In this document: positions 4,002 to 22,772 of the stretch, piece by piece
Layout: each line of letters starts with the position of its first letter
Position numbering within the stretch: position 1 is the first letter of the stretch
DNA from: Allosphingosinicella sp.
GTDB taxonomy: Bacteria; Pseudomonadota; Alphaproteobacteria; Sphingomonadales; Sphingomonadaceae
Assembly: GCA_035543935.1 (NCBI GenBank)
Contig: DATKIV010000013.1
Coordinates: 24,412-88,411, forward strand
Direction: 5' to 3'
DNA: 64,000 nucleotides
Program-made: the position numbers and the translations under genes
The notes under the pieces: generated by a model
What the model was told of the DNA's origin: nothing
The model's database searches: none
What the model saw: the letters and a program-made list of their open reading frames with translations, nothing else

Positions 4002-4207
4002 TCCGCCGCCCCAAATGTCCGCTGGCGGTGCAAGTTACGGAAATCCGGAAGCTTTACGGCTTGTGCGTGACGTCCCCCGCACTATTATGCTGGCCGAAAA
4101 AGCCGGGGGGCATCTGGCGGTTTTGAGGCGCTTGTCCGGACGATCTCGATCGTCGCGGCCTGCCTTTCACGATCATCCGGGCCGGCCGATGGCTGAAGGA
4201 GACTGGC

Positions 4208-7200: not shown

Positions 7201-7225
7201 CGCGAGCGACTTCACGATGATCTGA
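4208..7225 (+). CDS. RTX calcium-binding type I-secreted protein 2
   Basis: GTG start after GAAGGAGA; abundant GGxGxD repeats; C-terminal DFxAGxDKIGLD...LFYDADG tail. Confidence 0.88.
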   Translation: MATYTGDEGNNIFDGTGDADQASGLGGDDILNGLGGADILQGGEGDDQLDGGDGDDFLYGGNQFADNFLNDDNILNGGAGTDFIYGGNGNDVMNGGADNDVLLDGKGGNNTADGGDGNDQIEFSGTIFGTQDYYTNIVFGGAGDDNLIFHESNGSMSGGTGNDRIRAERGTITIDGGADNDEITMGQAIFQTDGIQTATGGSGADLFRVSDASRFGARDRILDFNAAEGDRLTLNDVSNGRTGFFWGLSGASVAWRGALDPALFVLGAALPPGDFGTGFVGIWTTQTGGNTYVIADSNGDLVFDAIDMVVELAGSVAIDAASFSQGEVFGGTYGTAAADTLNGTSENDTIYGLGGDDVMNGGNGGFDALYGGDGNDTIDLTFSTRGSAKGGAGNDIITGSNGGQGDFIEGEAGDDVIEGLKGADQLSGGDGNDIIRGGDDGDFLDGGLGNDILEGGSGQNSLDGFHGDDILRGGEGEDHLFGNVGNDTVDYSLILTGAVTVRLTLGQQNTGAGGFDNIGAVENVTGTTGFGDTLEGDGGANILKGLGGSDTLTGLGGSDLLDGGLGADMMTGGADNDIYVVDDLGDQLFEDVSGGIDEVRTSLASYALAASFENLTGDQSSQTLTGNAGGNTLIGGGGADTLSGGQGNDIYIVSGSDLVLELAGEGADLVYTSVSYVLPSNQEIETLSTQSHAGTDDLFLTGNQYNNRLIGNAGDNLLNGVDGADVMYGLAGDDIYAIDNLGDLVIDLENQGNDLVLTYLSHTLTNGNQIETLSTVFHQGTDAINLGGNDYNNTLIGNYGANYLNGNGGADVMIGLNGNDTYVADNAGDAVQEAAGGGSDLLYSFVSYALAAGQEVEAISTAVQGGTAAINLTGNEFAQTIVGNAGANLLDGKGGSDVLYGLGGADTFAFTTALGAGNVDTLADFVAGADKIGLDDAIFTAIGASLNASAFVIGTAAGDADDRIVYNSATGALFYDADGNGAGAAVQFATLNPGLALAASDFTMI
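6230..7225 (+). repeat. Shared 996-nt RTX C-terminal cassette, copy 2
   Basis: SYVLPSNQEIETL to stop, 996 nt. Confidence 0.9.
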
Positions 7226-7434
7226 AAAAGAGGGATGGGCCCTGTCCCCCCGGCTGAAAAAGCAAGTTGACGGGTCGGGGCGGGGAAGATTAAGTCTTTG
7301 CATAACAACAAAAAGGCGAGGCTCCCGCTTGTTCGGCCAACGGGTCGGGACCCACATCCTGAACATTGCGAGTAATGAACCCGGGCCGGGGCGTGGTAAT
7401 CGCGCCGTGCCGGTCCGTATGCGGGGGAAATGAC

Positions 7435-10400: not shown

Positions 10401-11376
10401 CCAGGAGATCGAGACGCTCACCACCCAGGCGCATGCGGGCACCGACGACGTCTTCCTGACCGGCAACCAATATAACAACACTTTGATCGGCAATGCCGGC
10501 GACAATATCATGAACGGCGTCGACGGCGCCGACGTGATGTACGGCCTCGACGGCGACGACACTTATGCGATCGACAATGTCGGCGACCTGGTGGTGGACG
10601 GCTTCGGCCAGGGTAACGATCTGGTCCTCACCTATCTCAGCCACACGCTTTCGAACGGCAACCAGATCGAGACGCTGTCGACGGTGTTCCACCAGGGCAC
10701 GACCGCGATCAACCTGGGCGGCAACGACTATGACAACACTTTGATCGGCAATTACGGCGCCAATTATCTCAACGGCAATGGCGGCATCGACGTCATGATC
10801 GGGCTCTACGGCGACGACACCTATGTCGCGGACAATGCCGGGGATGTGGTGCAGGAGGTTGCCGGCGGCGGCGCCGACCTTCTCTACAGCTTCGTCAGCT
10901 ACACGCTGGCGGCCGGGCAGGAGGTCGAGATCATCTCCACCGCGGTCCAGGGCGGCAGCACCGCGATCAACCTCACCGGCAACGAGTTCGCCCAGACCAT
11001 CGTCGGCAATGCCGGCGCCAACCTGATCGACGGCAAAGGCGGCAACGACGTGCTCTACGGCCTTGGCGGCACCGACACGTTCGCGTTCACCACCACGCTC
11101 GGCGCCGGCAATGTCGATACGCTCGCGGACTTCGTGGCGGGCACCGACAAGATCGGTCTCGACGACGCTATCTTCACCGCGATCGGCGCCACGCTCAATG
11201 CCAGTGCCTTCGTGATCGGCACGGCGGCTGGCGACGCCGACGACCGCATCGTCTACAACAGCACGACCGGCGCTCTCTTTTACGATGCCGACGGCTCGGG
11301 TGCCGGCGCGGCGGTCCAGTTCGCGACCCTGAGCCCGGGCTTGGTGCTGACCGCCGGCGACTTCACGATGATCTAG
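7435..11376 (+). CDS. RTX type I-secreted protein 3: two 7-repeat beta-propeller-like regions, a cadherin domain, RTX tail
   Basis: ATG 7435 after GGGGGAA; 14 repeats of VNT..G.Q..P.V..L..GGFVV.W...QIFDA.G.KVG.E; cadherin-like PTDIGLS...LDFE...VRVTD; shared C-terminal cassette. Confidence 0.85.
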   Translation: MVQLYKRKGDDILVNTATIGNQSGSNIALLPGGGFVIVWTDASLVGGDTSGLAVKGQRFDADGHKVGGEFLVNSTVTGSQTNPIVAALASGRFVVTWSDGSVTGGDTSSIAVRGQIFEANGTPVGAEFLINTQTANAQTGPGIVELAGGGFVVSWTDSSLIGGDASGSGIKAQIFDAAGAKVGGEILVNTETSGSQTTSSLIALASGGFAAAWTGAITASGGGVFGSVRVQLFDAAGAKLGTEQIVNANNEGNFNSTMISALGSGFIVTWAQQDSVFGVGIPVTFDVHAQLFDAAGAKVGGEFVVNTTTQGSQSGADVDALPGGGFLVTWQGPGTGTSLFNIFGQVFDNAGAKVGAEFVVTSVTSGNQLGPRVDVLPSGDIVIVWTDNNTTGPDQSGSAIKMQILTLTTDAPTDIGLSSTSISETAREDVPLVKLSATGALNSTFTYVIVSDSTGGAFAIEGDSLVVADNSLLDFEGDAQVEVRIRVTDLNGNSYEETIQLDIADTPEGGYAAPAGEILLNTTTAGDQVEPIVTALSSGGFLATWKTVPTSGLLLTTGQIFDAAGVKVGGELSLSDTYSVAGLPGGGFITAGEGTDADGGGVFVQFHDAAGAPVGVPIPVNTQTAGNQYEPSITMLASGGFVVTWTHFTISTFTSVVQAQIFDAAGVKVGAELQVPSITSGGGAEVVALADGGFVVSWTDGSVQAQIYTALGGRYGPQITVAEFPNVEPHITALADGGFVVTYARNISSGGFTGIDRLTAQIFDAEGNRVGDPILISVDGPAQVASTSVAALPWGGFVVSWADFGDAPGNPDSDVGIRAQVFDATGATVGGQQVVNIEGAFYQIQSSVTVLESGDFVIAWYDSSQVGGDASGSGIKARIFSVEEVSGPTEGPDFLNGTSGSDVIDALGGNDVVNGLGGNDILLGGSGDDELNGGEGNDTLYGEGGADIARGGAGDDVYIVDSMADVTEEAAGAGNDTIVTTLSYILSSNQEIETLTTQAHAGTDDVFLTGNQYNNTLIGNAGDNIMNGVDGADVMYGLDGDDTYAIDNVGDLVVDGFGQGNDLVLTYLSHTLSNGNQIETLSTVFHQGTTAINLGGNDYDNTLIGNYGANYLNGNGGIDVMIGLYGDDTYVADNAGDVVQEVAGGGADLLYSFVSYTLAAGQEVEIISTAVQGGSTAINLTGNEFAQTIVGNAGANLIDGKGGNDVLYGLGGTDTFAFTTTLGAGNVDTLADFVAGTDKIGLDDAIFTAIGATLNASAFVIGTAAGDADDRIVYNSTTGALFYDADGSGAGAAVQFATLSPGLVLTAGDFTMI
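10381..11376 (+). repeat. Shared 996-nt RTX C-terminal cassette, copy 3
   Basis: SYILSSNQEIETL to stop, 996 nt. Confidence 0.9.
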
Positions 11377-11431: not shown

Positions 11432-12718
11432 GTGAGCGCCGGCCTCGACCCGATCGAAACCGCGTCCCGGGACGCGCTCGAACATCTGCAGCTCGAGCGG
11501 CTGCGCTGGTCGCTCGGTCATGCCTATCGCGGCAACGGCCGCTATCGGGCCAAGTTCGATGCCGCCTCAGTCCATCCGGACGACCTGAAATCCCTGGCCG
11601 ATCTCGCCAGATTTCCGTTCACGATCAAGGCCGATCTGCGCGACGCTTATCCGTTCGATTTCTTCGCGGTGCCGCGCGAGCGGCTGGCGCGCATCCATGC
11701 CTCGTCGGGCACGACCGGCAAGCCGACCGTGGTCGGCTATACCAAGGCCGACATCGCGACCTGGGCGGGCCTCGTCGCCCGCTCGATCCACGCCGCCGGC
11801 GGCCGGCCAGGCATGACCGTCCATATCGGCTACGGCTATGGCCTCTTCACCGGCGGGCTCGGCGCGCATTACGGCGCGGAGGCTCTGGGCTGCACGGTGA
11901 TCCCGATGTCGGGCGGGCAGACCGAGAAGCAGGTCCAGCTGATCGCCGATTTCCGCCCCGACATCATCATGGTCACGCCGAGCTACGCACTCGCCATCCT
12001 CGACGAGTTCCGCCGCCAGGGGCGCGACGCGCGCGCCTCCTCGCTCCGCATCGGCATTTTCGGCGCCGAGCCCTGGACGGAAGGGATGCGGGCCGAGATC
12101 GAGCAGGCCTTCGCGATCGACGCGGTCGACATTTACGGCCTCTCCGAAGTGATCGGCCCGGGCGTCGCCCAGGAATGCGTCGAGACCAAGGACGGGCCGA
12201 CGATCTGGGAGGACCATTTCTATCCGGAGATCGTCGATCCCGAGACCGGGGCGGTGCTTCCGGACGGCGAGGAGGGCGAGCTCGTCTTCACCTCGCTGAC
12301 CAAGGAGGCGATGCCGATCGTCCGCTACCGCACCCGCGACCTCACCCGCCTGCTGCCCGGCACCGCGCGGACGATGCGGCGCATGGCCAGGATCACCGGC
12401 CGCTGCGACGACATGATGATCGTGCGCGGCGTCAACCTCTTCCCGAGCCAGATCGAGGAGCAGATCCTCGCCTGCCCGGCGCTGGCGCCGCATTTCCGGA
12501 TCGAGCTCAGCCGGCCCGAGCGGCTCGACCTGGTCCGGATCGTCGTCGAGGCGCGGCCCGGCGGCAGCCCGCAGGACGGCGCGCGCGACGGCCGGGCGCT
12601 GGCGGAGCGGATCAAGACGCTGATCGGCATCAGCGTGACGGTCGACGTCCGCCCCGAAGGCGAGGTCGCCCGCTCGACGGGCAAGGCGCAGCGCGTGATC
12701 GATCTCAGGATGAGGTGA
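11432..12718 (+). CDS. paaK: Phenylacetate-CoA ligase
   Basis: RIHASSGTTGKPTVVGYT, DIYGLSEVIGPGVA, RYRTRDLT, GVNLFPSQIEE motifs. Confidence 0.95.
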   Translation: MSAGLDPIETASRDALEHLQLERLRWSLGHAYRGNGRYRAKFDAASVHPDDLKSLADLARFPFTIKADLRDAYPFDFFAVPRERLARIHASSGTTGKPTVVGYTKADIATWAGLVARSIHAAGGRPGMTVHIGYGYGLFTGGLGAHYGAEALGCTVIPMSGGQTEKQVQLIADFRPDIIMVTPSYALAILDEFRRQGRDARASSLRIGIFGAEPWTEGMRAEIEQAFAIDAVDIYGLSEVIGPGVAQECVETKDGPTIWEDHFYPEIVDPETGAVLPDGEEGELVFTSLTKEAMPIVRYRTRDLTRLLPGTARTMRRMARITGRCDDMMIVRGVNLFPSQIEEQILACPALAPHFRIELSRPERLDLVRIVVEARPGGSPQDGARDGRALAERIKTLIGISVTVDVRPEGEVARSTGKAQRVIDLRMR

Positions 12719-12728
12719 GCCGAAACAC

Positions 12729-12810
12729 CGTCATTCCAGCGAAAGCTGGAATCCCGCTTCTTCAAGGCGCCGGAAAAGGAAAAGAGATTCCAGCTTCCGC
12801 TGGAATGACG
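12729..12810. repeat. CGTC-tagged palindromic repeat doublet (family A)
   Basis: CGTCATTCCAGCGAAAGCTGGAATC ... GATTCCAGCTTCCGCTGGAATGACG between convergent genes. Confidence 0.9.
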
Positions 12811-12826
12811 ATTTAGGCCGAACCGC

Positions 12827-13627
12827 CTAGCCGAACAGGGCCTCGTGGCGGTCGCAGATTCGAGGCCAGAGCGCCGCGATCTCGGGGACGTCGAGGGCGA
12901 AGCGGGTGCGCAGCGTGTCGACCAAAGTCTCCGCATCCTCGATCAGGAAGTCCTCATAGCTTTCGCCGCGGCTCAGGCTGAGCACGCGTCCGCGCAGCGA
13001 GGCGTGGCTGTCGCCGCTGCGGCGCTGGGCGACGAGATTGAGGACGAAGGGGGAGTCGGGGTCGGTCTGCAGGCGCGCCTGCTGGCGGGCGAGCAGGGCC
13101 GGATCGGCGGGCGCGAAGCGGAAGTCGAAGCTGAACGGCCGGCCGCGGATCCACTCCTCGTAGCGCCAATAATCGTCCTCGATCCGGGCCAGGCTGAGTT
13201 CGTAGGGCGCGTGCCGGTGCGCGGCCGGCGCAAGCGCGATCGGTTCGGCGAGGCTGCCGCCGAAGCCGGCGTCGACCAGCCAGGGCCGGTCGAGGAGGAC
13301 GACGAGGGCGAGATGATTGCCGAGCACGTTATCGCCCGACACGACCCGCATGACGCCGCCGGCGACGCGCACGACCTCAAAGCCGATCGTCTCCAGCGCC
13401 CAGCCGAGCAGCCCGTTCTGCTCGTAGCACCAGCCGCCGCGGCGGCGCCCGACCAGCTTGGCGAAGATTGCGGGCAGATCGCCGGCGATCGGCCGGCCGA
13501 GCTGGACGTCGAGATTCTCGAACGGGATGGCGGCGACATGGGCGCGCATGATCGCGGCGAGGCTGTCGTAAGTGGGCGCGACCGGGCCGGCATGGCCGAT
13601 GCGTTCGAGATAGGCCGAAAGGTCCAT
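12827..13627 (-). CDS. nat: Arylamine N-acetyltransferase
   Basis: IPFENLD, RRGGWCYEQN (Cys), NHLAL (His), LVDAGFG (Asp) catalytic triad motifs. Confidence 0.92.
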   Translation of the reverse strand: MDLSAYLERIGHAGPVAPTYDSLAAIMRAHVAAIPFENLDVQLGRPIAGDLPAIFAKLVGRRRGGWCYEQNGLLGWALETIGFEVVRVAGGVMRVVSGDNVLGNHLALVVLLDRPWLVDAGFGGSLAEPIALAPAAHRHAPYELSLARIEDDYWRYEEWIRGRPFSFDFRFAPADPALLARQQARLQTDPDSPFVLNLVAQRRSGDSHASLRGRVLSLSRGESYEDFLIEDAETLVDTLRTRFALDVPEIAALWPRICDRHEALFG

Positions 13628-13795: not shown

Positions 13796-14827
13796 ATGAG
13801 CGAAGTGAGGTTAATGCCCAGCTGCGGTTCCGCGAAGCGTCTGTCGCGCCTTCGCCTTCGCCATGTCCCCGCGGCGATGCTCGCGGCCGGGACGTTCTGC
13901 GCGGCCTCGCCCGCGCAGGCGGCGCGCACGCCCGCGGGCACGGTCATCAACAACAGCGCCACCGCCACCTATGATCTGCCCGGCGGCGGCCAGGACGTCG
14001 TCACCTCCAACGTCGTCAGCCTGACCGTCGACGAATTGCTCGACGTCAGCGTCGCCTCGGCCGACGGCGGCGACGTTTCGACAATGCCCGCCGCGGTCAA
14101 CCAGCTGCTGACCTTCCGAGTCACCAATGCCGGCAATGGCAGCGAGGCCTTCGTGCTGACCGCGCGCGACAATGCCGGCGGCGACGATTTCGACCCCGCC
14201 ACGACCTCGATCGTCCTCGATGGCAATGGCAATGGGGTCTACGATCCCGGCGTCGACATCGTCTACGTGCCCGGCTCGAACAATCCGGTGCTCGACCCGG
14301 ACGGCTCGATCGTCGTGTTCGCCCTCTCCTCGATTCCCGCCGGAGCGAGCAACGGCCAGCGCGGCCGCGTCGATCTCGTCGCGGTCGCCGCGACCGGCTC
14401 GGGCGCGCCGGGGACGAGCTTCGCCGGCCAGGGCCAGGGCGGCGGCGACGCCGTCGTCGGCGCGACCGGCGCCGATGCCGAGGATGACGGGTATTACGCC
14501 GTCCAGGCGGCCTCCGTCGCCTTCGTCAAGAGCGCCAGTGTCGCCGATCCGTTCGGCGGCGTCACCCGGGTGCCCGGCTCGATCATTACCTATCGCCTCG
14601 TCGCCACCGTCGGCGGCGCGGGCAGCCTCGCCAATTTGCGCATCGCCGACGCGATCCCGGCCGGCTCGACCTTCCGGCCCGGCTCGATCACGCTCGAAGG
14701 GGGCGCGCTCAGCGACGCCGCCGACGCCGATGCGGGAGAATTTACCGGGTCGGGCATCGCCGTCCGCCTCGGCACCGTCGCCGCGGGGGCCACCCGCATT
14801 GTCACGTTTCAAGTCGCGATCGACTGA
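13796..14827 (+). CDS. Secreted DUF11/Ig-like protein A (putative pilin)
   Basis: Signal peptide ending PAQA; N-terminal GTVINNSATATY; DGNGNGVYD loop; C-terminal DUF11-like domain FVKSAS...IADAIP...VTFQVAID; exact start uncertain (13796/13814). Confidence 0.75.
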   Translation: MSEVRLMPSCGSAKRLSRLRLRHVPAAMLAAGTFCAASPAQAARTPAGTVINNSATATYDLPGGGQDVVTSNVVSLTVDELLDVSVASADGGDVSTMPAAVNQLLTFRVTNAGNGSEAFVLTARDNAGGDDFDPATTSIVLDGNGNGVYDPGVDIVYVPGSNNPVLDPDGSIVVFALSSIPAGASNGQRGRVDLVAVAATGSGAPGTSFAGQGQGGGDAVVGATGADAEDDGYYAVQAASVAFVKSASVADPFGGVTRVPGSIITYRLVATVGGAGSLANLRIADAIPAGSTFRPGSITLEGGALSDAADADAGEFTGSGIAVRLGTVAAGATRIVTFQVAID

Positions 14828-14838
14828 AGGAGTCTGAA

Positions 14839-15300
14839 ATGAAACTCATCTTGATCCTGCTCGCTCTCCTGCTGCCCTCGGCAGCACTGGCGCAGAACCA
14901 GGTCGCCCTGAACAGCGAAGTGTTCGTCGAGCGCGCCACGCAGGACGCGAACGGCCAGCCGCGGGTCTCGCTCGAGGCGCCCGCCGTGGTCACGCCCGGC
15001 GACCAGCTCGTCTTCGTGCTCAGCTACCGCAACAATGGCGCGGCGCCGGCGAACGATTTCACCGTCACCAACCCCCTGCCGGATTCGGTTAGCTTCGCAG
15101 GAACAGAAAGTGCCGGAGCGGTTTATTCCGTCGACGGCGGCCGCAATTGGGGGGCGCTCGCCGCGCTCCAGGTCCGCAACGCCGACGGCAGCCGCCGCCC
15201 GGCCGCGCTCGCCGACGTCACCCACGTGCGCTGGCGGCTCGCTTCGGCGATCCCGGCCGGCGGCGGCGGGGAATTGAGATTCAGAGGCGTTGTAAAATAG
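14839..15300 (+). CDS. Secreted single-domain DUF11-like protein B
   Basis: MKLILILLALLLPSAALA signal, AAGGAG RBS; PGDQLVFVLSYRNNG...VTNPLP repeat-domain motif. Confidence 0.75.
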   Translation: MKLILILLALLLPSAALAQNQVALNSEVFVERATQDANGQPRVSLEAPAVVTPGDQLVFVLSYRNNGAAPANDFTVTNPLPDSVSFAGTESAGAVYSVDGGRNWGALAALQVRNADGSRRPAALADVTHVRWRLASAIPAGGGGELRFRGVVK

Positions 15301-15374: not shown

Positions 15375-16433
15375 ATGAAAACCTATACGCGCTTGGGCGC
15401 GGCGGCGAGCATATTCGCTGTCGCGGCGGTGACGGCTTCGCCCGCCTCCGCAGCCGGCACCGCTGCCGGTTCCACTATCACCAACAACGTCTCCGTGGCC
15501 TATCAGGTCGGTGGCGTTTCGCAGACCGGCCTTTCGGCAAGCAACAGCTTCACGGTCGACCGCAAGGTCAATTTCACCGTGGCCGAGGACGGCAGTTCGA
15601 CGACGACGGTGTCGCCTGGCCAGCTGGCCGCGGTGACCAGCTTCATCGTCACCAACACCTCCAACGCCCCGCTCGATTTCGCCCTCGCGGCGACCAATCG
15701 CGTCGGCGGCACCGCGGAGCATGGCGGCACGGACGTTTTCGACGTGTCCAATTTGCGGCTCTACGCGGACACCAACAACAACGGCGCTTATGACAGCGGC
15801 ACTGACGTTTTGATCACCTATCTGGATCAAATCGCTGCCGATGCCAGTGCCAGGGTGTTCGTCCTCGCCGACGTGCCGCTCGGCCGTTCGACCAACGAAG
15901 TCGCTGGCGTCCGGCTGACCGGCACCGCGTCCGAAGCGACCGCCGCCGGCTCGCTCGGCGCGGTCGTCACCCAGACCGCCGGCGCCAATACCGCCGGTGT
16001 CGACACCGTCTTCGCCGACACCAATGTCGGCGGCAATACGGCGCGCGACGGCATCCACTTCGACGAGGATGATTATACCATCTTCGCCGCCGCGCTGACC
16101 GCGACCAAGACCAGCCGAGTGATCAGCGATCCGCTCAACGGCGCGACCAACCCCAAGCTCATCCCGGGCGCGGTCGTCGAATATTGCATCACCGTGGCCA
16201 ATGGCTCCGGCGGCGCCGCGGCCGCCAACGTCGCCATTTCCGATACGCTGCCGGCGACGACGACCTATGATGCCTCGTTCGGCGTCAAGGTCAACGGCAC
16301 GGTGACGAGCGGGACGTGCAATGCCGACGGCGCGATTGTCGGCGCGCACGCTTCCGGCGTGGTCAGTGGAACGATTCCGAGCATCGTGGCGGGCGACACC
16401 CGCACCGTGCTGTTCCGCGTGACGATCAACTAG
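15375..16433 (+). CDS. Secreted DUF11/Ig-like protein C (putative major pilin)
   Basis: Signal ending PASA; GSTITNNVSVAY; DTNNNGAYD loop; ATKTS...PGAVVEYCITVAN...ISDTLP...LFRVTIN. Confidence 0.8.
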   Translation: MKTYTRLGAAASIFAVAAVTASPASAAGTAAGSTITNNVSVAYQVGGVSQTGLSASNSFTVDRKVNFTVAEDGSSTTTVSPGQLAAVTSFIVTNTSNAPLDFALAATNRVGGTAEHGGTDVFDVSNLRLYADTNNNGAYDSGTDVLITYLDQIAADASARVFVLADVPLGRSTNEVAGVRLTGTASEATAAGSLGAVVTQTAGANTAGVDTVFADTNVGGNTARDGIHFDEDDYTIFAAALTATKTSRVISDPLNGATNPKLIPGAVVEYCITVANGSGGAAAANVAISDTLPATTTYDASFGVKVNGTVTSGTCNADGAIVGAHASGVVSGTIPSIVAGDTRTVLFRVTIN

Positions 16434-16482: not shown

Positions 16483-19400
16483 ATGAAAACCCGAGCTCAT
16501 CTTCTCGGGGCGACCTTGCTCGCCTTCCTGGCGTCGCTGATCCTAGCGGCGCCAGCGGAGGCGGGCGCGCCCGCGACGCGCACCCTCACCAATGTCGCGA
16601 CCATTTCCTGGGATGCCGGCGGCCAGCATGTCGAGCTTCCCTCCAACCGCGTCGACATCGACGTGGTGCCGCCGCCGTCCACGACCGCAATCCTCGAGAC
16701 GCTGCGGCTGACCGACACCCTCTTTCCTCCCGCCGTGCTCGCCGGCACGTGCAGCGCCGCCACGAGCCAGGCGCAGCAGACGCCGCTGCAGGGGCCCGAA
16801 CCGCCGCCGCTTTCTTCATTGGCGATGATCGCGACCAGCGAGCTGGTCGCCGGCCGGCCGATCGTGCTGTCGCTCGACCGGCCTTCCGCCAATCGCGACA
16901 GCCAGGCCATCGAAACCATCATCGTCGTCGTCGAGACCGATCTCGGCGACCGCGAGCGGATCGCCCTCGTCGAAACCGGCGCCGACAGCGGCCGCTTCAT
17001 CGGCATCTTGCTGACGACGACCGGCCCGCCCGTCTCCGGTGACTGCCGCTTCTCGGTGCGCCCCGACCAGGCCTTGGTGCTCACGCTCAGCGACGCCGTC
17101 GGCGGCGCCGCGGTCGCGCGCAAAGAGGTCGCAATCCTTGTCGATCCCTTCGGCATCGCCTTCGACAGCCGCGACGGCGCGCCGGTTTCGGAGGTTCGCA
17201 TCACCCTGATCGACGCCGCCACCGGCCAGCCGGCCCTGGTCTTCGGCGACGACGGCATTTCCTCCTATCCGTCGACGATCGTCACCGGCCGGAGCGTCAC
17301 CGATGCGGGCGGGATGCGCTACGATTATCCGGCCGGCGACTATCGCTTCCCGCTGGTGCGGCCGGGCCGCTACCGGCTGATCGTCGAGCCGATCGCGCCT
17401 TATACGGCGCCGTCGGTCGCGACCGCCGCCGATCTTGCGCCCTTGCGACGACCGGATGGGCTGCCCTTCGTCGTCGTGGCGGGATCCTATGGCGGCGAGA
17501 TCCTGCTTGCGGGAACCGGAGCGGTACGAATAGATATTCCGCTCGACCGGCCGGTCACGCCGATCCTGCTCAGCAAGACCGCGTCGCGCGCCGAGGCCGA
17601 AGCGGGCGATCTCGTCCAATATCGGGTGATCGTGCGCAATCCGGACGCCAATGCGGCGACCGGCGCGCTCTCTATCACCGATCGAATCCCGCATCAGATG
17701 CGGTTGCGAACCGGATCGGTAAAAATCGACGGTGTGAACGTACCAGACCCCGCGAATGGCGGCGCCCGCGTGCTGACTTTCGCATTGCCCTCGCTCGCGC
17801 CTGCGGCGCAAGCCACCCTGACCTACGTGCTCGAGGTTCGCCCCGACGCGCGCCGCGGCGACGCGCTCAACCGCGCCCAGGCCGCCGGACCGCGCGGCAA
17901 TGTCAGCAATATCGCCGACGCCCTCGTCCGCATCCGGCGCGAGACGATCCTCGACCGGATGACGATCACCGGCCGTGTCGTCGACGGCGGCTGCGGCGTC
18001 GATCCCCGGACGCGTCCCGGCATCGGCGGCGTCCGCATCATGCTCGAGGACGGCAGCTACGCCGTCACCGACGCCAGCGGCCTCTACCATTTCGAAGGCG
18101 TGATGCCCGGCACCCATGTCGTCCAGCTCGACGACGCGACCCTGCCCGCCGACCGCGCCGCGGTCGATTGCTCGCGCAACGTCCGCTCCGGCGGCCGCGC
18201 TTTCTCGCGCTTCGTGTCGGGCCAGGGCGGGTCGCTGATGCGCGTCGATTTCCACGCCGCCGAATCCGTGCCGCGCGCCGCCGTCGCCCGCCGCACCGCG
18301 GAACGGCCCGCCGCGGCAACCGACCCCATCGCCGCCGGCGCCGAGCGCGACTGGTTCGCGGGCCAGGAGCCGGGCATCGCCTGGCTGTTCCCGGAGGTCG
18401 ACCACAATCCGCGCGCGCCGGTCGTCCGGGTCGCGATCAAGCATCTGCCCGGCCAGAGCGTGCGCCTGCTCAACGGCGGCCGCCCGGTCGATCCGATCGC
18501 CTTCGAAGGCGCCAGGGTCAACGAGGCCGGCACTGTCGCGGTCAGCCTCTGGCGCGGCATCCCGATCGAGGACCGCACGACCAGGCTCACCGCCGAAATC
18601 CGCGACGCCAACGGCACTGTGGTGACGATCCTGACCCGGCCCGTCACCTTCTCCAACGTCGCGGTCCGCGCCGAACTGGTGCGCTCGCGCTCGCTGCTCG
18701 TCGCCGACGGCGTCAGCCGGCCGGTGCTTGCCTTGCGCCTGACCGACAGCAACGGCCGCCCGGTCCATCACGGCCTGGCCGGCGATTTCGAAGTGCCCGC
18801 GCCTTATTATCCCGCGGTCGAGGCCGACGCCCAGCAGGCGCGCCAGCTCGCCGGGCTCGAGCGCGCGCGGCCGGTCTGGCACGTCGAGGGCGAGGACGGC
18901 GTGGCGTATGTCGAGCTCGAGCCGACCACCGCTTCGGGCACCGTCACCCTGCGCTTCAATTTCCGCGACGGCGAGCTCGTGCGCGAGCAGCGCGTCGAAG
19001 CCTGGCTCGATCCCGGCGAACGGCCGTGGACGATCGTCGGCCTCGCCGAGGGCACGATCGGCTTCAACCGGCTCGACCGCAACATGGAGGCGCTGGGCCA
19101 GGATCCGGGCCGCAACGAGGTGATCACCGACGGTCGTCTCGCCCTCTATGCGCGGGGCCGGATCAGCGGCCGCTGGCTGATGACGCTCGCTTATGACAGC
19201 GACAGAAGGGAATCGGAGACCCGCTTCGGCGGAGTCATCGATCCGACCGCTTATTACACCGTCTACGCCGACCGCTCGGAGCGCCGTTACGACGCCGCCT
19301 CGGTGCGCAGGCTCTATCTGAGGCTCGAGCGGCCGCAATTCTATGCCCTGTTCGGCGATTACGACACCGGCATCGACGAGCCCGAGCTCGCCCGCTACGT

Positions 19401-21576
19401 CCGCTCGATGAACGGCCTCAAGGCCGAATATCGCTCGGACCGCGTCTCGGCGACCGCCTTCGCCTCCGACACGCCGAACCGCCACCGCCGCGACGAAATC
19501 CAGGGCAACGGCCTGTCCGGCCCTTATGCTTTGGCCAGCCGCAACCTCCTCGCCAATTCCGAGCGGGTGACGATCGAGGTTCGCGACCGGCTCCATTCGG
19601 AGCGGATCCTCGAAAGCCGCCTGCTGATGCGCCATATCGATTATGACATCGACTATGCCGCGGGCACTTTGCGTTTCCGCGAGCCGATCCTGAGCCGCTC
19701 GTCGGCCCTCGATCCGCAGTTCATCGTCGCCGATTACGAGGTCGACGGAATCGCCTCGCGCGAGCTCAACGCCGGCGGCCGCGTCGCTTGGCGCAGCGCC
19801 GACCAAAGGCTGCAGGTGGCGGCGACCGCGATCCACGACAATGACGGCACCACCCGCACCAATCTGGGCGGCGTCGACGTCCGCTTCCGGCCGACGCCGA
19901 GGACCGAGATCCGCGCCGAAGTGGCGGTCAGCGACAGCCGCGCCACGGCGGCCGGCGGCGCCGCGCCGGCGCAGGGCGGCACCGCCACGGCCTGGCAGAT
20001 CGAGGTCGAGCATCACGACCGCCGCTTCGACCTGCTCGCTTACGCCCGCGAGCGCGAGGCCGGCTTCGGCGTCGGCCAGCTCAACGCCTCGGGCAACGGC
20101 ACGAGGAAGATCGGCATCGACGGCCGCGCGCGCCTCACTGACACCTTGTCGCTGACCGGCAGTGCCTGGACGGAAGATTATCTGGGCAGCGAGGCGCGGC
20201 GGATCGCCGGGCGCGCCTTGCTCGAATATCGCGGCCGCGATTTTTCGGCGCGCGCCGGCCTCACAATCGCCGACGACCGGCTCGCCGACGGCCGCACCGC
20301 CCGTTCGCAGATCCTCCAGCTCGGCGCGACAAGGCGCTTCTTCGGCAACCGGCTCGAGCTCGACGCGCAGACCGAGCTGCCGATCGGCGGCAGCGACGAC
20401 AGCATCGACTTTCCCGCCCGCCACCGCCTCTCGGCGCGCTTCGCGGTGAGCCGCAGCGTCGCCTTGATCGGATCCTACGAGATCGCCGACGGCGAGCATA
20501 TCGACGCGCGCACCGCCCGGATCGGCTTCGAGCTCGCGCCCTGGGCCGGCGCGCGCATCGCCTTGACCGGCAACATGCAGAATATCGCCGAATATGGCCC
20601 GCGCAGCTTCGCCGCCTTCGGCCTGTCGCAATCTTTGGTGCTGTCGGAGCGCTGGTCGGTCGATTTCACCCTGGACGGCAACCGCACGCTCGGCGGGATC
20701 GATCCGACCCGCGTGCTCGATCCGCTCCATCCGGTGGCGAGCGGCGGCTTCGTCGGCGACGGCGCCACGCTCACCGAGGATTTCACCGCGGTCACCGCGG
20801 GCGCGACCTATCGCGCCGGCCGCTGGAGCCTCACCGGCCGCGCCGAATATCGCGCCGGCGACCGCGAGGACCGCTACGGCGTCACCTTCGCCGCGCTTCG
20901 CCAAATCGGTGAAGGACGCGCGGTGGGGGGCGCGCTGAACTGGTTCACGGCCGAAGCCCCGGGGGGCGCCCGCACGCGCACCGCCAACGTGCAGCTGACC
21001 TGGGCCCACCGCCCGGCCAACAGCGCTTTCTCCTTCCTCGACAAGTTCGAGCTGCGCGAGGACATGGTGCGCGGCGCCGTCGCCGGCGTGCCCGGCCCGA
21101 TCGGCTCGCCCTTCACGATCACCGGCGACGCCCGCTCGCGACGCGTCGTCAATTCGCTGGCGGTCAATTACTCGCCTTATGGCGGCGGCCCCGGCGCCGG
21201 CTATTTCGGCCGCACCGAGCTTTCGTTCTTCTGGGGCAGCCGTTACGTCTCCGAGCGCGTGAGCGGGGACGACATCAAGGGCTGGAGCAACGTGGTGGGG
21301 GGCGATATCAGGTTCGATCTCAACGACATCGTCCAGATCGGCGCGGCCGGCAGCGTGCGCCAGGGCGTCGGCGGCCGCTCCTATTCCTTCTCGGGCGGGC
21401 CGAGCGTCGGCATCCGGCCGTTCGACAATGGCTGGCTCACCGTCGGCTGGAACATCGTCGGCTTCCACGACCGCGATTTCGAGCAGGATCGTTATACAAG
21501 GAGCGGCCCCTACGTGACCATGCGGATCAAATTCGACCAGTTCAGCCTGGCCGGGCTCGGCCTGGGGCGGCGATGA
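16483..21576 (+). CDS. Large outer-membrane protein D: Ig/SdrD-B-like domains, complete DUF11, predicted C-terminal beta-barrel
   Basis: Signal ending PAEA; LSKTAS...GDLVQYRVIVRN...ITDRIP...LNRAQA; ITGRVVD...TDASGLYHFEGVMPG; second half of alternating amphipathic strands ending YVTMRIKF. Confidence 0.8.
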   Translation: MKTRAHLLGATLLAFLASLILAAPAEAGAPATRTLTNVATISWDAGGQHVELPSNRVDIDVVPPPSTTAILETLRLTDTLFPPAVLAGTCSAATSQAQQTPLQGPEPPPLSSLAMIATSELVAGRPIVLSLDRPSANRDSQAIETIIVVVETDLGDRERIALVETGADSGRFIGILLTTTGPPVSGDCRFSVRPDQALVLTLSDAVGGAAVARKEVAILVDPFGIAFDSRDGAPVSEVRITLIDAATGQPALVFGDDGISSYPSTIVTGRSVTDAGGMRYDYPAGDYRFPLVRPGRYRLIVEPIAPYTAPSVATAADLAPLRRPDGLPFVVVAGSYGGEILLAGTGAVRIDIPLDRPVTPILLSKTASRAEAEAGDLVQYRVIVRNPDANAATGALSITDRIPHQMRLRTGSVKIDGVNVPDPANGGARVLTFALPSLAPAAQATLTYVLEVRPDARRGDALNRAQAAGPRGNVSNIADALVRIRRETILDRMTITGRVVDGGCGVDPRTRPGIGGVRIMLEDGSYAVTDASGLYHFEGVMPGTHVVQLDDATLPADRAAVDCSRNVRSGGRAFSRFVSGQGGSLMRVDFHAAESVPRAAVARRTAERPAAATDPIAAGAERDWFAGQEPGIAWLFPEVDHNPRAPVVRVAIKHLPGQSVRLLNGGRPVDPIAFEGARVNEAGTVAVSLWRGIPIEDRTTRLTAEIRDANGTVVTILTRPVTFSNVAVRAELVRSRSLLVADGVSRPVLALRLTDSNGRPVHHGLAGDFEVPAPYYPAVEADAQQARQLAGLERARPVWHVEGEDGVAYVELEPTTASGTVTLRFNFRDGELVREQRVEAWLDPGERPWTIVGLAEGTIGFNRLDRNMEALGQDPGRNEVITDGRLALYARGRISGRWLMTLAYDSDRRESETRFGGVIDPTAYYTVYADRSERRYDAASVRRLYLRLERPQFYALFGDYDTGIDEPELARYVRSMNGLKAEYRSDRVSATAFASDTPNRHRRDEIQGNGLSGPYALASRNLLANSERVTIEVRDRLHSERILESRLLMRHIDYDIDYAAGTLRFREPILSRSSALDPQFIVADYEVDGIASRELNAGGRVAWRSADQRLQVAATAIHDNDGTTRTNLGGVDVRFRPTPRTEIRAEVAVSDSRATAAGGAAPAQGGTATAWQIEVEHHDRRFDLLAYAREREAGFGVGQLNASGNGTRKIGIDGRARLTDTLSLTGSAWTEDYLGSEARRIAGRALLEYRGRDFSARAGLTIADDRLADGRTARSQILQLGATRRFFGNRLELDAQTELPIGGSDDSIDFPARHRLSARFAVSRSVALIGSYEIADGEHIDARTARIGFELAPWAGARIALTGNMQNIAEYGPRSFAAFGLSQSLVLSERWSVDFTLDGNRTLGGIDPTRVLDPLHPVASGGFVGDGATLTEDFTAVTAGATYRAGRWSLTGRAEYRAGDREDRYGVTFAALRQIGEGRAVGGALNWFTAEAPGGARTRTANVQLTWAHRPANSAFSFLDKFELREDMVRGAVAGVPGPIGSPFTITGDARSRRVVNSLAVNYSPYGGGPGAGYFGRTELSFFWGSRYVSERVSGDDIKGWSNVVGGDIRFDLNDIVQIGAAGSVRQGVGGRSYSFSGGPSVGIRPFDNGWLTVGWNIVGFHDRDFEQDRYTRSGPYVTMRIKFDQFSLAGLGLGRR

Positions 21577-22772
21577 TGCGCGCGCGGCTCTTCCTTCTTG
21601 TCGCGGCGCTGCTGCTGCCGCCGCTGCTGGCGGCGCCGGCCCGAGCGGCGTGCGACGCGAGCAACACCTATAACTTCGCCTTTTCGAGCGTAGCCGATAC
21701 GTCGCTAACCTATGGGACCACATACACTTATACAGCAACGAACCCACTTGGCGCGACGCGCGCGTTTACATTCCGTGCCGTCAACAATGGCCTGAGCTCG
21801 ATCCAGGTGAACAGCGACAATATGCCGCAGATCAGCGGCGACCTCACCAGCGGCACCGGTGGCAAGACGTTCCAGATCGGCGGCACCTTCCCCTCGCGCA
21901 CCGCGAGCATCACCTCGAACACGCGGACCATCCGGCTGACGATCGCGTTCGCGGTCCCGGTTCGCGACATCATCGTGAACGGCCACGATGCCGACTTCAC
22001 GAGCAACCAGTTCCGGGATTGGGTCCATCTGACCGGCTCGGACGGCACCTCGACCTTCGTGCCGGCGCTGTCGGCCCCGGCCGGGAACAATAACGGCGCC
22101 GGCGCGCGCACGGCGACGGGCTCCTCGGTCAATTTCGGGGCCGACAACGCTCCCTTCGTCCTCACCAGCAACGAGGCGGTCGGCGTCAGCACAAGCGCCG
22201 ATGTAAACGTGACCACCGGCGACGTCGTCATCAGCTTCCCGCAGCCGGTGACGTCGGTCACGATCAGCTACGGGAACTTTCCGCTACAGTCGGGCGAAAC
22301 GTCGACGGGCCAGCAGCGCTTCGGCATTTCCCAGGTGCGCTTCTGCCCGATGCCCTCGCTCGCGATCGCCAAGACCTCGGCCCCTTACGTCACCACGGCG
22401 GGATCGCCGGACAGGTTCAACGCGCCAGGCTCGGACGTCGCTTATTCGCTCACCGTCACCAACAGCGGCGGCAGCCCCGTCGATCTCAGCAGCCTGGTGC
22501 TGACCGACATGCTGCCAACGGGCGTCACCTTCTATAATGGCGACTATAATCCGGCCGTGCCGGGCATGGGGCCGTTCGAGCTCACCGCCGGGACCAGCGG
22601 CATCACCTTGCCCGCGGGCGGCCGCGCTTATTCCAACAATAACGGCTCGACCTACGTCTACGCGCCCGCGGCCGGCTACGACGCCAATGTCGATGCGGTG
22701 CGGCTGACGCCGACGGGAAGCATGGCCGCCAATTCGAGCTTCACCATCCGCTTTCGGGCGCGGATCAATTGA
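21573..22772 (+). CDS. Secreted protein E with unique N-terminal beta-rich domain and C-terminal DUF11-like domain (putative tip adhesin)
   Basis: ATGA overlap with D; signal ending PARA; Cys pair (ACD.../FCPMP) flanking the N-domain; IAKTS...PGSDVAYSLTVTN...LTDMLP...FRARIN. Confidence 0.75.
   Translation: MMRARLFLLVAALLLPPLLAAPARAACDASNTYNFAFSSVADTSLTYGTTYTYTATNPLGATRAFTFRAVNNGLSSIQVNSDNMPQISGDLTSGTGGKTFQIGGTFPSRTASITSNTRTIRLTIAFAVPVRDIIVNGHDADFTSNQFRDWVHLTGSDGTSTFVPALSAPAGNNNGAGARTATGSSVNFGADNAPFVLTSNEAVGVSTSADVNVTTGDVVISFPQPVTSVTISYGNFPLQSGETSTGQQRFGISQVRFCPMPSLAIAKTSAPYVTTAGSPDRFNAPGSDVAYSLTVTNSGGSPVDLSSLVLTDMLPTGVTFYNGDYNPAVPGMGPFELTAGTSGITLPAGGRAYSNNNGSTYVYAPAAGYDANVDAVRLTPTGSMAANSSFTIRFRARIN

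What the first reader, a model, noticed from the sequence alone, without database searches (positions are those of the whole stretch)
16483..21576. 1697-aa barrel protein as combined secretion pore and pilus anchor
Seen: signal peptide, donor-like N-terminal hairpin, several Ig/SdrD-B-like modules, an invasin-like VADGVSRPV segment, then roughly 800 aa of amphipathic beta-strands ending in an aromatic strand (YVTMRIKF). It shows no PapC/FimD usher motifs that I can recognise. Inference: a new usher-like class whose own N-terminal stalk is covalently joined to the fibre.
Basis: partly seen in the sequence, partly recalled or inferred. Interest (0 to 1): 0.65.

Follow-up and report, generated by a model that had tools for sequence, protein, structure and literature searches.

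The report
Giant barrel base of split-domain pilus
This 1697-residue protein is a pilin-like stalk fused to a very large, unclassified outer-membrane barrel; it most likely roots, and probably also lets through, a surface fibre whose subunits snap together by completing each other's half-finished domains, a pilus system I could not find described in print.

Summary
The ORF is real (16483-21576, +, 1697 aa) and the described anatomy holds.

- **Parts.** It has a signal peptide, a confident N-terminal beta-hairpin, and a stack of Gram-positive-pilin-like Ig domains with one complete CLIPPER/DUF11 domain. Two more Ig domains follow, then about 850 residues forming roughly 37-41 amphipathic strands with a conserved ~70-residue insert.
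- **Barrel family.** It has no Pfam or NCBIfam model and no relation to ushers (hhalign 2%; no usher in the Foldseek top 50). It is large: 2965 clusters at 50% identity.
- **Neighbours.** It almost always sits beside small secreted DUF11 proteins. Their last domain has the Lys and Asp but lacks the two final strands. Those strands, with an invariant Asn, sit at the N-terminus of the next subunit and of D.
- **Topology.** Most relatives outside Sphingomonadales carry a peptidoglycan-binding OmpA domain between stalk and barrel. In distant relatives the protein is split into a giant adhesin (CshA-type tip, C-terminal OmpA) plus a separate barrel gene. The stalk must therefore thread the barrel.

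I read D as basal pilin, anchor and conduit in one chain. Covalent joining and pilin export are inferred, not shown.

The parts
13796..14827 (+). Gene A, 343-aa secreted pilin. It has an N-terminal donor hairpin (Asn53) and a C-terminal CLIPPER/DUF11 domain that stops before its last two strands.
   Evidence: Across 65 orthologues Lys245 is kept in 65, Asp285 in 65 and hairpin Asn53 in 64.
14839..15300 (+). Gene B, 153-aa secreted single truncated CLIPPER-like domain. It has Ser and Asn where the isopeptide Lys and catalytic Asp would be. It is a candidate reversible cap for donor hairpins.
   Evidence: Ser26 is kept in 47 of 63 orthologues and Asn78 in 61 of 63. B-like genes are also found in distant loci.
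15375..16433 (+). Gene C, 352-aa secreted pilin. It has a donor hairpin (Asn37) and a truncated C-terminal CLIPPER acceptor.
   Evidence: Across 71 orthologues Lys245 is kept in 70, Asp290 in 70 and Asn37 in 67.
16483..16563 (+). D residues 1-27: Sec signal peptide, with cleavage after AEA.
   Evidence: Read from the translation.
16576..16668 (+). D residues 32-62: donor beta-hairpin (TRTLTNVATISW...PSNRVDIDVV). Asn37 (16591-16593) is the predicted isopeptide partner.
   Evidence: AF2 strands D33-45 and D48-61, pLDDT about 89. N37, A39 and N55 are invariant and S54 is nearly invariant (>=90%) in 58 sequences. Appending the hairpin to the A or C acceptor extends the DUF11 HMM match from position 83/84 to 97 and adds about 6 bits, against about 1 bit for a shuffled hairpin.
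16825..17553 (+). D residues 115-357: two pilin-like beta-sandwich domains (N1, and N2 which looks transthyretin/CnaB-like).
   Evidence: AF2 pLDDT 83-97. Foldseek matches BcpA, EbpB, SpaD, SpaA and RrgB.
17566..17952 (+). D residues 362-490: a complete CLIPPER/DUF11 domain with its own Lys365, Asp400 and Asn463. It offers no free acceptor.
   Evidence: Pfam DUF11 31.1 bits against a 24.6 cut-off, and TIGR01451. HMM coverage 4-98. Asp400 and Asn463 are invariant.
17959..18267 (+). D residues 493-595: SdrD_B/CarboxypepD_reg-like domain with invariant Cys504 and Cys563. It is the best conserved domain of the N-terminal half.
   Evidence: Mean identity to distant homologues is 0.51, against 0.28-0.34 for the hairpin, N1 and CLIPPER domains.
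18268..18378 (+). D residues 596-632: Ala/Pro-rich linker. Most homologues outside Sphingomonadales carry an OmpA peptidoglycan-binding domain at this position.
   Evidence: Pfam OmpA in P0139, P0170, P0261 and P0155 (E down to 7.6e-31), in most of the 120 hits, and in the profile search against PDB.
18379..19014 (+). D residues 633-844: two Ig domains. The second is Big/invasin-like and contains VADGVSRPV. They are probably a periplasmic strut below the barrel.
   Evidence: AF2 pLDDT 80-94. Invasin_D3 hit is sub-threshold. Big_1 gives a weak hit at the same place in a split relative. Placement in the periplasm is inferred.
19024..19302 (+). D residues 848-940: a highly conserved segment (PWTIVGLAEGTIGF ... 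GRWLMTLAYDSD) that AF2 cannot place. It is a candidate gate, seam or partner-binding element.
   Evidence: Invariant V, G, G and nearly invariant W, A, G. pLDDT 30-48.
19312..19503 (+). D residues 944-1007: the first confidently modelled barrel strands (5 strands).
   Evidence: This and the insert are the most conserved part, mean identity 0.56.
19504..19713 (+). D residues 1008-1077: a conserved small beta insert (GNGLSGPYAL...VTIEVRD...IDYDIDYAAGTLRF). It is a candidate plug.
   Evidence: It supplied one of the three patterns that retrieved 590 relatives. The plug role is inferred.
19714..21534 (+). D residues 1078-1684: 32 long amphipathic strands (mean 12.3 residues), ending in YVTMRIKF.
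   Evidence: Alternation z = 3.5, with one face A/V/L/G/I/F and the other R/G/T/S/E/D. Foldseek matches only generic large barrels: SlpA, MtrB, LptD, TBDTs, SprA.
21535..21576 (+). D residues 1685-1697: a conserved tail (DQ...) and the stop codon. The stop overlaps the start codon of E (ATGA).
   Evidence: K, F, Q nearly invariant; D invariant.
21573..22772 (+). Gene E, 399-aa secreted protein. It has no donor hairpin but does have a truncated C-terminal CLIPPER acceptor (Lys, Asp). It is the candidate tip subunit.
   Evidence: It is variable or replaced in relatives, for example by an 813-aa SpaA_4 protein in Microbulbifer.

Best explanation
D is the base of a split-domain surface fibre. It acts as last subunit, anchor and outer-membrane conduit in one polypeptide.

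**Proposed mechanism**
1. After Sec export, the C-terminal ~850 residues fold into a very large barrel of about 37-41 strands in the outer membrane.
2. The two Ig domains before the barrel hang in the periplasm. In most relatives an OmpA domain there grips the peptidoglycan.
3. The small subunits E (tip, acceptor only) and A/C (donor plus acceptor) join head to tail. Each N-terminal hairpin supplies the two strands missing from the previous subunit's last CLIPPER domain.
4. This brings the hairpin Asn next to the acceptor's Lys and Asp, so the joint probably locks itself with a spontaneous isopeptide bond.
5. D's own hairpin (Asn37) makes the final joint. D has no free acceptor, so this ends growth.
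6. D's pilin-like stalk then lies in and above the barrel lumen, tying the fibre to the outer membrane.
7. The chain is the topological equivalent of one long adhesin threaded tip-first through the barrel. The subunits therefore most likely leave through the same barrel as folded domains.

**Shown:** the anatomy, the conservation, the gene neighbourhood, and the fusion and fission variants.
**Inferred:** the direction of threading, the covalent bond, and export of the small subunits through D.
For: **Hairpin and acceptor**
- D's hairpin is confidently folded and its Asn37 is invariant.
- Appending the hairpin to the truncated acceptor of A or C extends the DUF11 HMM match to position 97 and adds about 6 bits. 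A shuffled hairpin adds about 1 bit.
- Lys and Asp in the acceptors and Asn in the donors are kept in 64-70 of 65-71 orthologues. These match the Lys / Asp / penultimate-strand Asn triad of the solved CLIPPER domain (PMC12617251).
- D's only CLIPPER domain is complete. E lacks a hairpin.
- The N-half of D folds like sortase pilins, including the basal pilin EbpB.

**Gene context**
- The A-B-C-D order is kept in every Sphingomonadales locus with a full upstream flank, about 57 loci, and in Marinomonas, Microbulbifer and other gammaproteobacterial lineages.
- No other outer-membrane gene lies in the block.
- The genome has no usher, no PapD_N and no sortase.

**Topology**
- Most D homologues outside Sphingomonadales carry an OmpA domain between stalk and barrel.
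- In G123 a 2042-aa adhesin (N-terminal CshA_NR2 adhesive domain, CLIPPER/CnaB stalk, C-terminal OmpA) lies directly before a gene for signal peptide plus barrel.
- The same stalk-protein-plus-barrel pairing occurs in G135, G055, G187 and G140.

**Pore size and conservation**
- About 37-41 strands with a polar inner face is far more than an anchor needs. Standard barrel geometry would give a lumen of several nanometres (inference).
- The barrel-proximal parts (SdrD_B-like, Ig1, Ig2, first strands and insert) have identity 0.44-0.56. The hairpin and distal stalk have 0.28-0.34.
Against: - There is no experimental datum for any member of this family.
- No multimer model could be run, so the hairpin-acceptor fit is a sequence-profile argument of modest size (about 6 bits).
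- Model coordinates could not be read. Barrel closure, strand number, lumen width and the position of the insert are therefore unverified.
- Residues 848-940 are modelled poorly (pLDDT 30-48).
- This particular D lacks the OmpA domain, so its topology is argued from relatives.
- Nothing explains what stops D's hairpin from capping the tip at once, nor what drives export.
- Growth from the base outward on the cell surface (D first, E last) fits the same polarity. In that case the subunits would need another way out.
Confidence: 0.55

Rival explanations
1. Anchor only. D exports just its own N-terminal stalk through its barrel, in the manner of an autotransporter, and serves as a surface nucleator and anchor. 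The small subunits reach the surface by another route, for example a type II system or vesicles. They then add outward onto D's exposed hairpin, with E capping the far end.
For: The head-to-tail polarity of donors and acceptors fits growth from D outward as well as growth at the base. In uncut relatives the barrel serves a single partner adhesin, so its conserved job is to hold one stalk. A stalk resting in the lumen could block further traffic.
Against: No other export component is conserved with the block in alpha- or gammaproteobacteria. A barrel of about 37-41 strands is far larger than the 12-16 strands that suffice for unfolded passengers (type V knowledge). Releasing subunits freely into the medium would be wasteful.
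Confidence: 0.2
2. Periplasmic platform. The whole N-terminal region of D, hairpin included, stays in the periplasm like an usher's periplasmic domains. The hairpin would hold or terminate the fibre's base there while only A/C/E pass the barrel.
For: The OmpA domain of relatives places at least the adjoining parts in the periplasm. Barrel termini are normally periplasmic (general outer-membrane protein knowledge). Ushers hold the last subunit on the periplasmic side.
Against: The N-region varies from about 640 to 1950 residues by gain and loss of stalk repeats. That is typical of exposed stalks and too long for the periplasm. In split relatives the homologous stalk protein carries an adhesive CshA_NR2 tip at its N-terminus and OmpA at its C-terminus, so it must cross the membrane. 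The distal stalk evolves faster than the barrel-proximal part.
Confidence: 0.15
3. No fibre at all. D is a self-contained adhesin or large porin that tethers the outer membrane to the wall. The neighbouring DUF11 proteins are independent envelope proteins that fold on their own.
For: All evidence for joining is computational. Foldseek's best match, SlpA, is a wall-tethering giant barrel. Truncated-looking domains can be alignment artefacts.
Against: The truncation, the matching N-terminal hairpins and the split Lys/Asp versus Asn triad are conserved in 60-70 orthologues each and in distant lineages. The gene order is strictly conserved. The D stop overlaps the E start.
Confidence: 0.07

Closest known systems
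Chaperone-usher pili (FimD/PapC usher, FimC/PapD chaperone, FimI/PapH terminator)
   Same: [quoted passage not shown] The order is tip first, shaft, then a last subunit that cannot accept another and anchors the fibre. An outer-membrane barrel with a small beta insert near its start and Ig domains on the periplasmic side is encoded in the same operon.
   Different: There is no sequence, profile or fold relation to ushers. The barrel has about 37-41 strands, not 24. There is no PapD-like chaperone. The donor is a two-strand hairpin completing a CnaA-like CLIPPER domain that carries an isopeptide triad. Terminator, anchor and pore are one polypeptide.
Sortase-assembled Gram-positive pili (BcpA, SpaA/SpaD, RrgB; basal pilin EbpB)
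   Same: The N-half of D and the small subunits are stacks of CnaA/CnaB-type Ig domains (Foldseek E 4.5e-15). Subunits are predicted to be covalently linked. A dedicated basal subunit ties the fibre to the cell envelope.
   Different: There is no sortase in the genome and no LPXTG motif. The link is predicted to form by itself inside a domain split between two chains. The anchor is an outer-membrane barrel, with non-covalent OmpA binding to the wall in relatives.
Exchange-and-lock polymers: C. perfringens BsaA (PMC11580942) and archaeal threads (PMC9715654)
   Same: An N-terminal segment of one subunit inserts into the sheet of the next. For BsaA, isopeptide bonding of the joint is modelled and supported by mutants (abstract). 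Threads join by donor-strand complementation.
   Different: These have different folds (TasA-like, type-I-pilin-like), occur in monoderm or archaeal envelopes, and have no outer-membrane barrel and no basal subunit fused to a pore.
Type V secretion (classical autotransporters; intimin/invasin inverse autotransporters)
   Same: Exported stalk and membrane barrel are in one chain, with the stalk passing through the barrel lumen. A Big/invasin-like Ig domain lies next to the barrel.
   Different: Type V barrels have 12-16 strands and recognised Pfam families; none is detected here. Here periplasmic domains sit between stalk and barrel, and separate subunits extend the stalk.
Giant single-chain barrels: Deinococcus SlpA (30 strands, wall-tethered), MtrB sheath around MtrA, T9SS SprA (36 strands)
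   Same: These are the best Foldseek matches. SlpA couples a wall-binding domain to a giant barrel, and MtrB encloses another protein that spans the membrane.
   Different: TM-scores are only 0.17-0.31 with no sequence relation. None of these is joined to a pilin stalk.

Membership tests
Fimbrial usher (Pfam PF00577; FimD/PapC) | Match to the Usher profile | tested here: not met
   No Pfam hit on residues 840-1697 even at E <= 10. hhalign of the barrel family against six ushers gives probability 2.2%.
Fimbrial usher (Pfam PF00577; FimD/PapC) | 24-strand barrel with a plug domain inserted early in the barrel, plus periplasmic N- and C-terminal domains | tested here: inconclusive
   AF2 and DSSP give 5-9 strands, a ~70-residue beta insert, then 32 strands. 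There are two Ig domains before the barrel and none after it. Coordinates were not readable. No usher appears among the top 50 Foldseek hits.
Fimbrial usher (Pfam PF00577; FimD/PapC) | Works with a PapD-like periplasmic chaperone encoded alongside | tested here: not met
   No PF00345 match anywhere in the genome. The operon holds only DUF11-type proteins.
Sortase-dependent pilins (basal pilin type) | Stack of CnaA/CnaB Ig domains | tested here: met
   Foldseek of D 28-620 matches BcpA at 4.5e-15, EbpB at 8e-13 and SpaD at 9e-13.
Sortase-dependent pilins (basal pilin type) | C-terminal LPXTG sorting signal and a sortase | tested here: not met
   D ends in a barrel. No PF04203 match in the genome.
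CLIPPER / DUF11 (PF01345) isopeptide domain | Profile match above the gathering score | tested here: met
   D 363-468 scores 31.1 bits against a 24.6 cut-off. TIGR01451 scores 32.9 against 24.
CLIPPER / DUF11 (PF01345) isopeptide domain | Lys (first strand), catalytic Asp, and Asn (penultimate strand), as in the solved domain (PMC12617251) | tested here: met
   In D's internal domain these are K365, D400 and N463. In A, C and E the Lys and Asp are present while the Asn lies in the donor hairpins of A, C and D. Bond formation itself cannot be tested with these tools.
Type V autotransporters (Va, Ve) | 12-strand (Va) or intimin-type barrel with a recognised Pfam family | tested here: not met
   No such Pfam hit. 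About 37-41 predicted strands.
OmpA-like peptidoglycan-binding proteins (PF00691) | OmpA_C-like domain | tested here: not met
   It is absent from this D, where residues 596-632 form a linker. It is present at that position in most homologues outside Sphingomonadales.
TonB-dependent transporters | N-terminal plug domain (PF07715) and 22-strand receptor barrel (PF00593) | tested here: not met
   No Pfam hit. Foldseek similarity is generic, with TM 0.14-0.28.

The most novel reading that the evidence does not exclude
D defines a new outer-membrane secretion and assembly machine, with three properties:
- a barrel of about 40 strands passes folded pilins that ligate themselves;
- it ends the fibre by ligating its own N-terminus to it;
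- in most lineages it pins the whole fibre to the peptidoglycan through an OmpA domain.

In effect this would be a natural SpyTag/SpyCatcher-type pilus with a built-in usher, terminator and wall anchor. It would also be a pilus pathway unrelated to chaperone-usher, type IV, type V, curli or sortase systems.
Probability: 0.4. Interest if true: 0.9.

Novelty: categorically new. Interest (0 to 1): 0.8.

Why it matters
If the reading holds, Gram-negative bacteria own a widespread kind of pilus that nobody has characterised. The barrel family has 2965 clusters at 50% identity and occurs in about one in ten sampled Pseudomonadota genomes. By source labels it also occurs in Nitrospirota and Bacteroidota.

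The pilus would be covalently linked without any enzyme. It would be exported and rooted by a new family of giant outer-membrane barrels that no domain database yet models.

- **Export of folded proteins.** It would give a new answer to how folded protein polymers cross the outer membrane.
- **Link to Gram-positive pili.** It would show an evolutionary tie between Gram-positive-type pilins and diderm envelopes.
- **Origin of pili.** The uncut, fused and split variants would provide a natural series showing how a single long adhesin can be cut into polymerising pieces.
- **Protein engineering.** The split CLIPPER pairs could serve as new self-ligating protein tags.
- **Structural target.** The barrel would be a candidate for the largest single-chain barrel known.

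Tried and rejected
- **Family searches.** Pfam and NCBIfam scans of the barrel found nothing, even at E <= 10.
- **PDB by sequence.** A sequence search found nothing. A family profile against PDB found only the OmpA domain of relatives.
- **Foldseek on the barrel model.** It returned only generic large barrels with TM <= 0.31. No usher, FapF or CsgG appeared among the top 50. I therefore rejected usher, TBDT, LptD and type V membership.
- **Profile-profile test against ushers.** This was negative, at 2.2%.
- **Literature.** Five full-text searches found the CLIPPER domain paper, BsaA and archaeal threads, but no description of this operon or barrel. The DUF11 hits in the haloarchaeal tafi paper were DUF1102 and not relevant.
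- **Uninformative contexts.** The Nitrospirota contig and the short contig of P0275 gave no usable neighbourhood.
- **Tool limits.** Model coordinates are not exposed, so I could not measure pore width, confirm barrel closure or place the insert. Only two structure jobs and single chains were allowed, so no hairpin-acceptor complex could be predicted.
- **Self-complementation.** I considered and rejected the idea that D's hairpin completes a domain within D. D's only CLIPPER domain is complete.
Full report
**1. The observation**

The window is G+C-rich (about 68%). By its closest protein hits it comes from an Allosphingosinicella-like sphingomonad. The ORF at 16483-21576 (+) encodes 1697 residues.

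It is the fourth of five tightly packed same-strand genes, all with signal peptides:

| Gene | Coordinates | Length |
|---|---|---|
| A | 13796-14827 | 343 aa |
| B | 14839-15300 | 153 aa |
| C | 15375-16433 | 352 aa |
| D | 16483-21576 | 1697 aa |
| E | 21573-22772 | 399 aa |

The gaps between them are 11, 74 and 49 nt. The D stop overlaps the E start.

Pfam finds a DUF11 domain in D at 363-468 above its cut-off. CarboxypepD_reg, SdrD_B (about 505-551) and Invasin_D3 (735-764) fall below their cut-offs. Nothing is found for the last ~850 residues, even at E <= 10. NCBIfam gives only TIGR01451. A PDB sequence search gives nothing.

**2. Structure predictions**

*Residues 620-1697.* I used an 82-sequence alignment at 37-96% identity. 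The model has pLDDT 77 and pTM 0.73. In order, it shows:
- two Ig domains (633-723 and 729-844);
- a poorly modelled but highly conserved stretch (848-940);
- five confident strands (944-1007);
- a small beta insert (1008-1077);
- 32 long strands, mean 12.3 residues, ending at YVTMRIKF (1677-1684);
- a conserved 13-residue tail.

Within the 32 strands hydrophobicity alternates beyond in-strand shuffles (z = 3.5). One face is A/V/L/G/I/F and the other is R/G/T/S/E/D. This fits a lipid-facing outside and a water-filled inside.

The total is about 37-41 strands. I could not read the coordinates, so closure and width are unverified. Standard barrel geometry for 32-40 strands would give a lumen of several nanometres, which is wide enough for a folded Ig domain. 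That estimate is my inference.

Foldseek against the PDB returns only generic large barrels: SlpA, MtrB, LptD, TonB-dependent transporters and SprA. TM-scores are 0.31 at most, and no usher appears in the top 50.

*Residues 28-620.* The model has pLDDT 86.7. It starts with a long hairpin (33-45 and 48-61, pLDDT about 89) and continues as a stack of beta-sandwiches. Foldseek matches this stack to Gram-positive sortase pilins:
- BcpA, E 4.5e-15;
- basal pilin EbpB, E 8e-13;
- SpaD, SpaA and RrgB.

**3. The barrel is a large, unnamed family tied to DUF11 partners**

An exhaustive search with residues 840-1697 finds 2965 clusters at 50% identity, of which 1121 have E <= 1e-30. The barrel is almost always at the C-terminus, behind an N-region of very variable length. 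Twenty-nine of 301 sampled Pseudomonadota genomes have a match. Source labels include Microbulbifer, Novilysobacter, Moraxellaceae, Steroidobacteraceae, Burkholderiales, Nitrospirota and Pedobacter.

The gene order A-B-C-D is kept widely:
- in every one of the ~57 Sphingomonadales loci with a full upstream flank, where the B-like gene went undetected in two;
- in a Marinomonas locus;
- in Microbulbifer;
- in further lineages, one genome having two copies.

In a more distant gammaproteobacterial family the pilins are too diverged for phmmer. They still show the same N-terminal hairpins and the same cut-short ends by eye. The refuting condition that homologues mostly lack DUF11 neighbours is clearly not met.

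**4. The split domain, and D's place in it**

DUF11 has been renamed CLIPPER. It is a CnaA-like fold with an isopeptide bond between a Lys in the first strand and an Asn in the penultimate strand, helped by an Asp (PMC12617251).

- A, C and E end right after the strand that precedes the Asn strand (...VTFQVAID*, ...VLFRVTIN*, ...IRFRARIN*). They keep the Lys and the Asp.
- A, C and D begin, after signal-peptide cleavage, with a hairpin carrying the Asn motif (VINNSATATY, ITNNVSVAY, LTNVATISW).

Conservation across orthologues:

| Subunit | Lys | Asp | Donor Asn |
|---|---|---|---|
| A | 65/65 | 65/65 | 64/65 |
| C | 70/71 | 70/71 | 67/71 |

D's Asn37 is invariant in 58 sequences.

As a test, I appended D's hairpin to the acceptors and re-scanned against Pfam:

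| Construct | DUF11 score | HMM end position |
|---|---|---|
| A acceptor alone | 18.6 bits | 83 |
| A acceptor + D hairpin | 25.2 bits | 97 |
| A acceptor + shuffled hairpin | 19.7 bits | 85 |
| C acceptor alone | 30.8 bits | 84 |
| C acceptor + D hairpin | 36.9 bits | 97 |

D's own intact domain ends at HMM position 98, so the hairpin supplies the missing part.

D's internal CLIPPER domain is complete (K365, D400, N463), so D can donate but cannot accept. E can accept but cannot donate. B is a lone cut-short domain with Ser and Asn in place of the Lys and Asp.

This gives a polarity of E, then (A/C)n, then D, running N-to-C from tip to base. The chain resembles one long adhesin cut inside its domains. 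The covalent bond is inferred from the triad, not shown.

**5. Topology: evidence from fused and split relatives**

Most D homologues outside Sphingomonadales carry a Pfam OmpA peptidoglycan-binding domain (E down to 7.6e-31). It sits between the SdrD_B-like domain and the two Ig domains. In this D a 37-residue linker (596-632) takes its place. The adjoining parts must therefore be periplasmic.

In more distant genomes the protein is two genes:
- **G123.** A 2042-residue adhesin lies directly before a gene for signal peptide plus barrel. The adhesin has an N-terminal CshA_NR2 adhesive domain (E 1.8e-35), a GEVED domain, CLIPPER/CnaB-type stalk domains and a C-terminal OmpA domain.
- **Other cases.** The same stalk-protein-then-barrel pairing occurs in G135 (where the barrel gene also shows a weak Big_1 hit), G055, G187 and the sphingomonad G140.

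An adhesin with its adhesive tip at one end and a wall-binding domain at the other has to cross the outer membrane. The adjacent barrel is the only candidate conduit. By homology, D's stalk threads its own barrel, with Ig1 and Ig2 below it.

Two further observations fit this picture:
- The OmpA-to-barrel spacing is roughly constant at about 270-310 residues in three of the four homologues scanned, the fourth having two OmpA stretches. The N-region ahead of OmpA varies about two-fold in those four, and the whole N-region ahead of the barrel varies about three-fold across the family.
- The barrel-proximal parts are better conserved (0.44-0.56 identity) than the hairpin and distal stalk (0.28-0.34).

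**6. Mechanism and its rivals**

*Best reading (0.55).* D is basal pilin, anchor and conduit in one chain.
- Subunits join at the base in the periplasm and are extruded tip-first as folded domains through the wide barrel.
- D's hairpin makes the last, probably covalent, joint.
- The stalk follows into the lumen until the periplasmic domains stop it.

*Rivals.*
- Anchor and nucleator only, with subunits exported elsewhere and added outward (0.2).
- A wholly periplasmic N-region acting like an usher's periplasmic domains (0.15). The CshA-tipped split relatives and the repeat-number variation argue against this.
- No fibre at all (0.07). The conserved split triad and strict synteny argue against this.

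*Unexplained.*
- The role of the conserved but unmodelled 848-940 stretch.
- What stops D from capping the tip at once. B may mask donor hairpins.
- The energy source for export.

**7. Comparison with known systems**

In role, the closest system is the chaperone-usher pathway: donor-strand completion, tip-to-base order, a terminator that anchors, and a barrel with an early insert and periplasmic Ig domains. Membership fails on several counts:
- no Usher profile match;
- hhalign probability 2.2%;
- no usher among the top Foldseek hits;
- no PapD-like chaperone in the genome;
- about 40 strands rather than 24.

In fold, the stalk and subunits are Gram-positive-type pilins, but there is no sortase and no LPXTG motif. 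The self-locking joint has printed analogues in BsaA (PMC11580942) and, for donor-strand joining, in archaeal threads (PMC9715654). It also has engineered analogues in split CnaB tags (my own knowledge). None of these involves an outer-membrane barrel.

Five literature searches found no description of this operon or barrel.

Earlier notes of this scan on other genomes reach the same general reading. They are AI notes and not independent evidence. One later check recorded there lists periplasm versus surface as unexplained. The OmpA and CshA-tip split relatives described in section 5 bear on exactly that point.

**8. Verdict**

The anchor joined to the fibre is well argued. 'Usher-like' holds for role only. 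Export of the small subunits and the covalent bond remain inferences.
- The system lies outside every characterised pilus or secretion family that I could test.

Noticed in passing
window 14839-15300: B is a conserved lone CLIPPER-like domain. It is cut short like the pilin acceptors but has Ser and Asn in place of the isopeptide Lys and catalytic Asp (S26 in 47 of 63 orthologues, N78 in 61 of 63). It could bind donor hairpins reversibly and delay polymerisation or D's terminating joint.
   Followed up: partly
window 19024-19302 (D residues 848-940): This is one of the most conserved stretches of the whole family (PWTIVGLAEGTIGF, GRWLMTLAYDSD), yet AF2 gives pLDDT 30-48. It may be a gate, a seam or a partner-binding strand.
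   Followed up: no
window 17959-18267 (D residues 493-595): The SdrD_B-like domain has invariant Cys504 and Cys563 and conserved His residues. It is the best conserved domain of the N-half and is retained at the C-end of the stalk protein in at least one split relative (G135). It may sit in or under the barrel as a stopper.
   Followed up: partly
L121 (G123:C1:1807246-1816700) and L122 (G135): Uncut relatives. L121 encodes a 2042-aa adhesin with a CshA_NR2 tip, a GEVED domain, a CLIPPER stalk and a C-terminal OmpA domain. L122 encodes a 2958-aa SdrD_B/DUF11 adhesin. In both, a separate barrel gene follows immediately.
   Followed up: partly
L087 and L088 (genome G188): One genome of the same family as the window's carries two complete copies of the A-B-C-D operon. 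Only one copy has a recognisable E.
   Followed up: no
window 501-11376: Three tandem RTX-type calcium-binding repeat genes (501-4001, 4208-7225, 7366-11376) share near-identical C-terminal parts. No type I transporter was seen nearby.
   Followed up: no
It appears unrelated to the fibre genes.
   Followed up: no
window 11432-13627: By eye, a phenylacetate-CoA-ligase-like gene (11432-12718, +) and an arylamine N-acetyltransferase-like gene (12827-13627, -) lie upstream. This marks the left boundary of the operon.
   Followed up: no
Pfam/NCBIfam coverage: A barrel family with 2965 clusters at 50% identity has no model in Pfam-A or NCBIfam. Its members are annotated only as 'DUF11 domain-containing' or 'OmpA family' protein.
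   Followed up: yes
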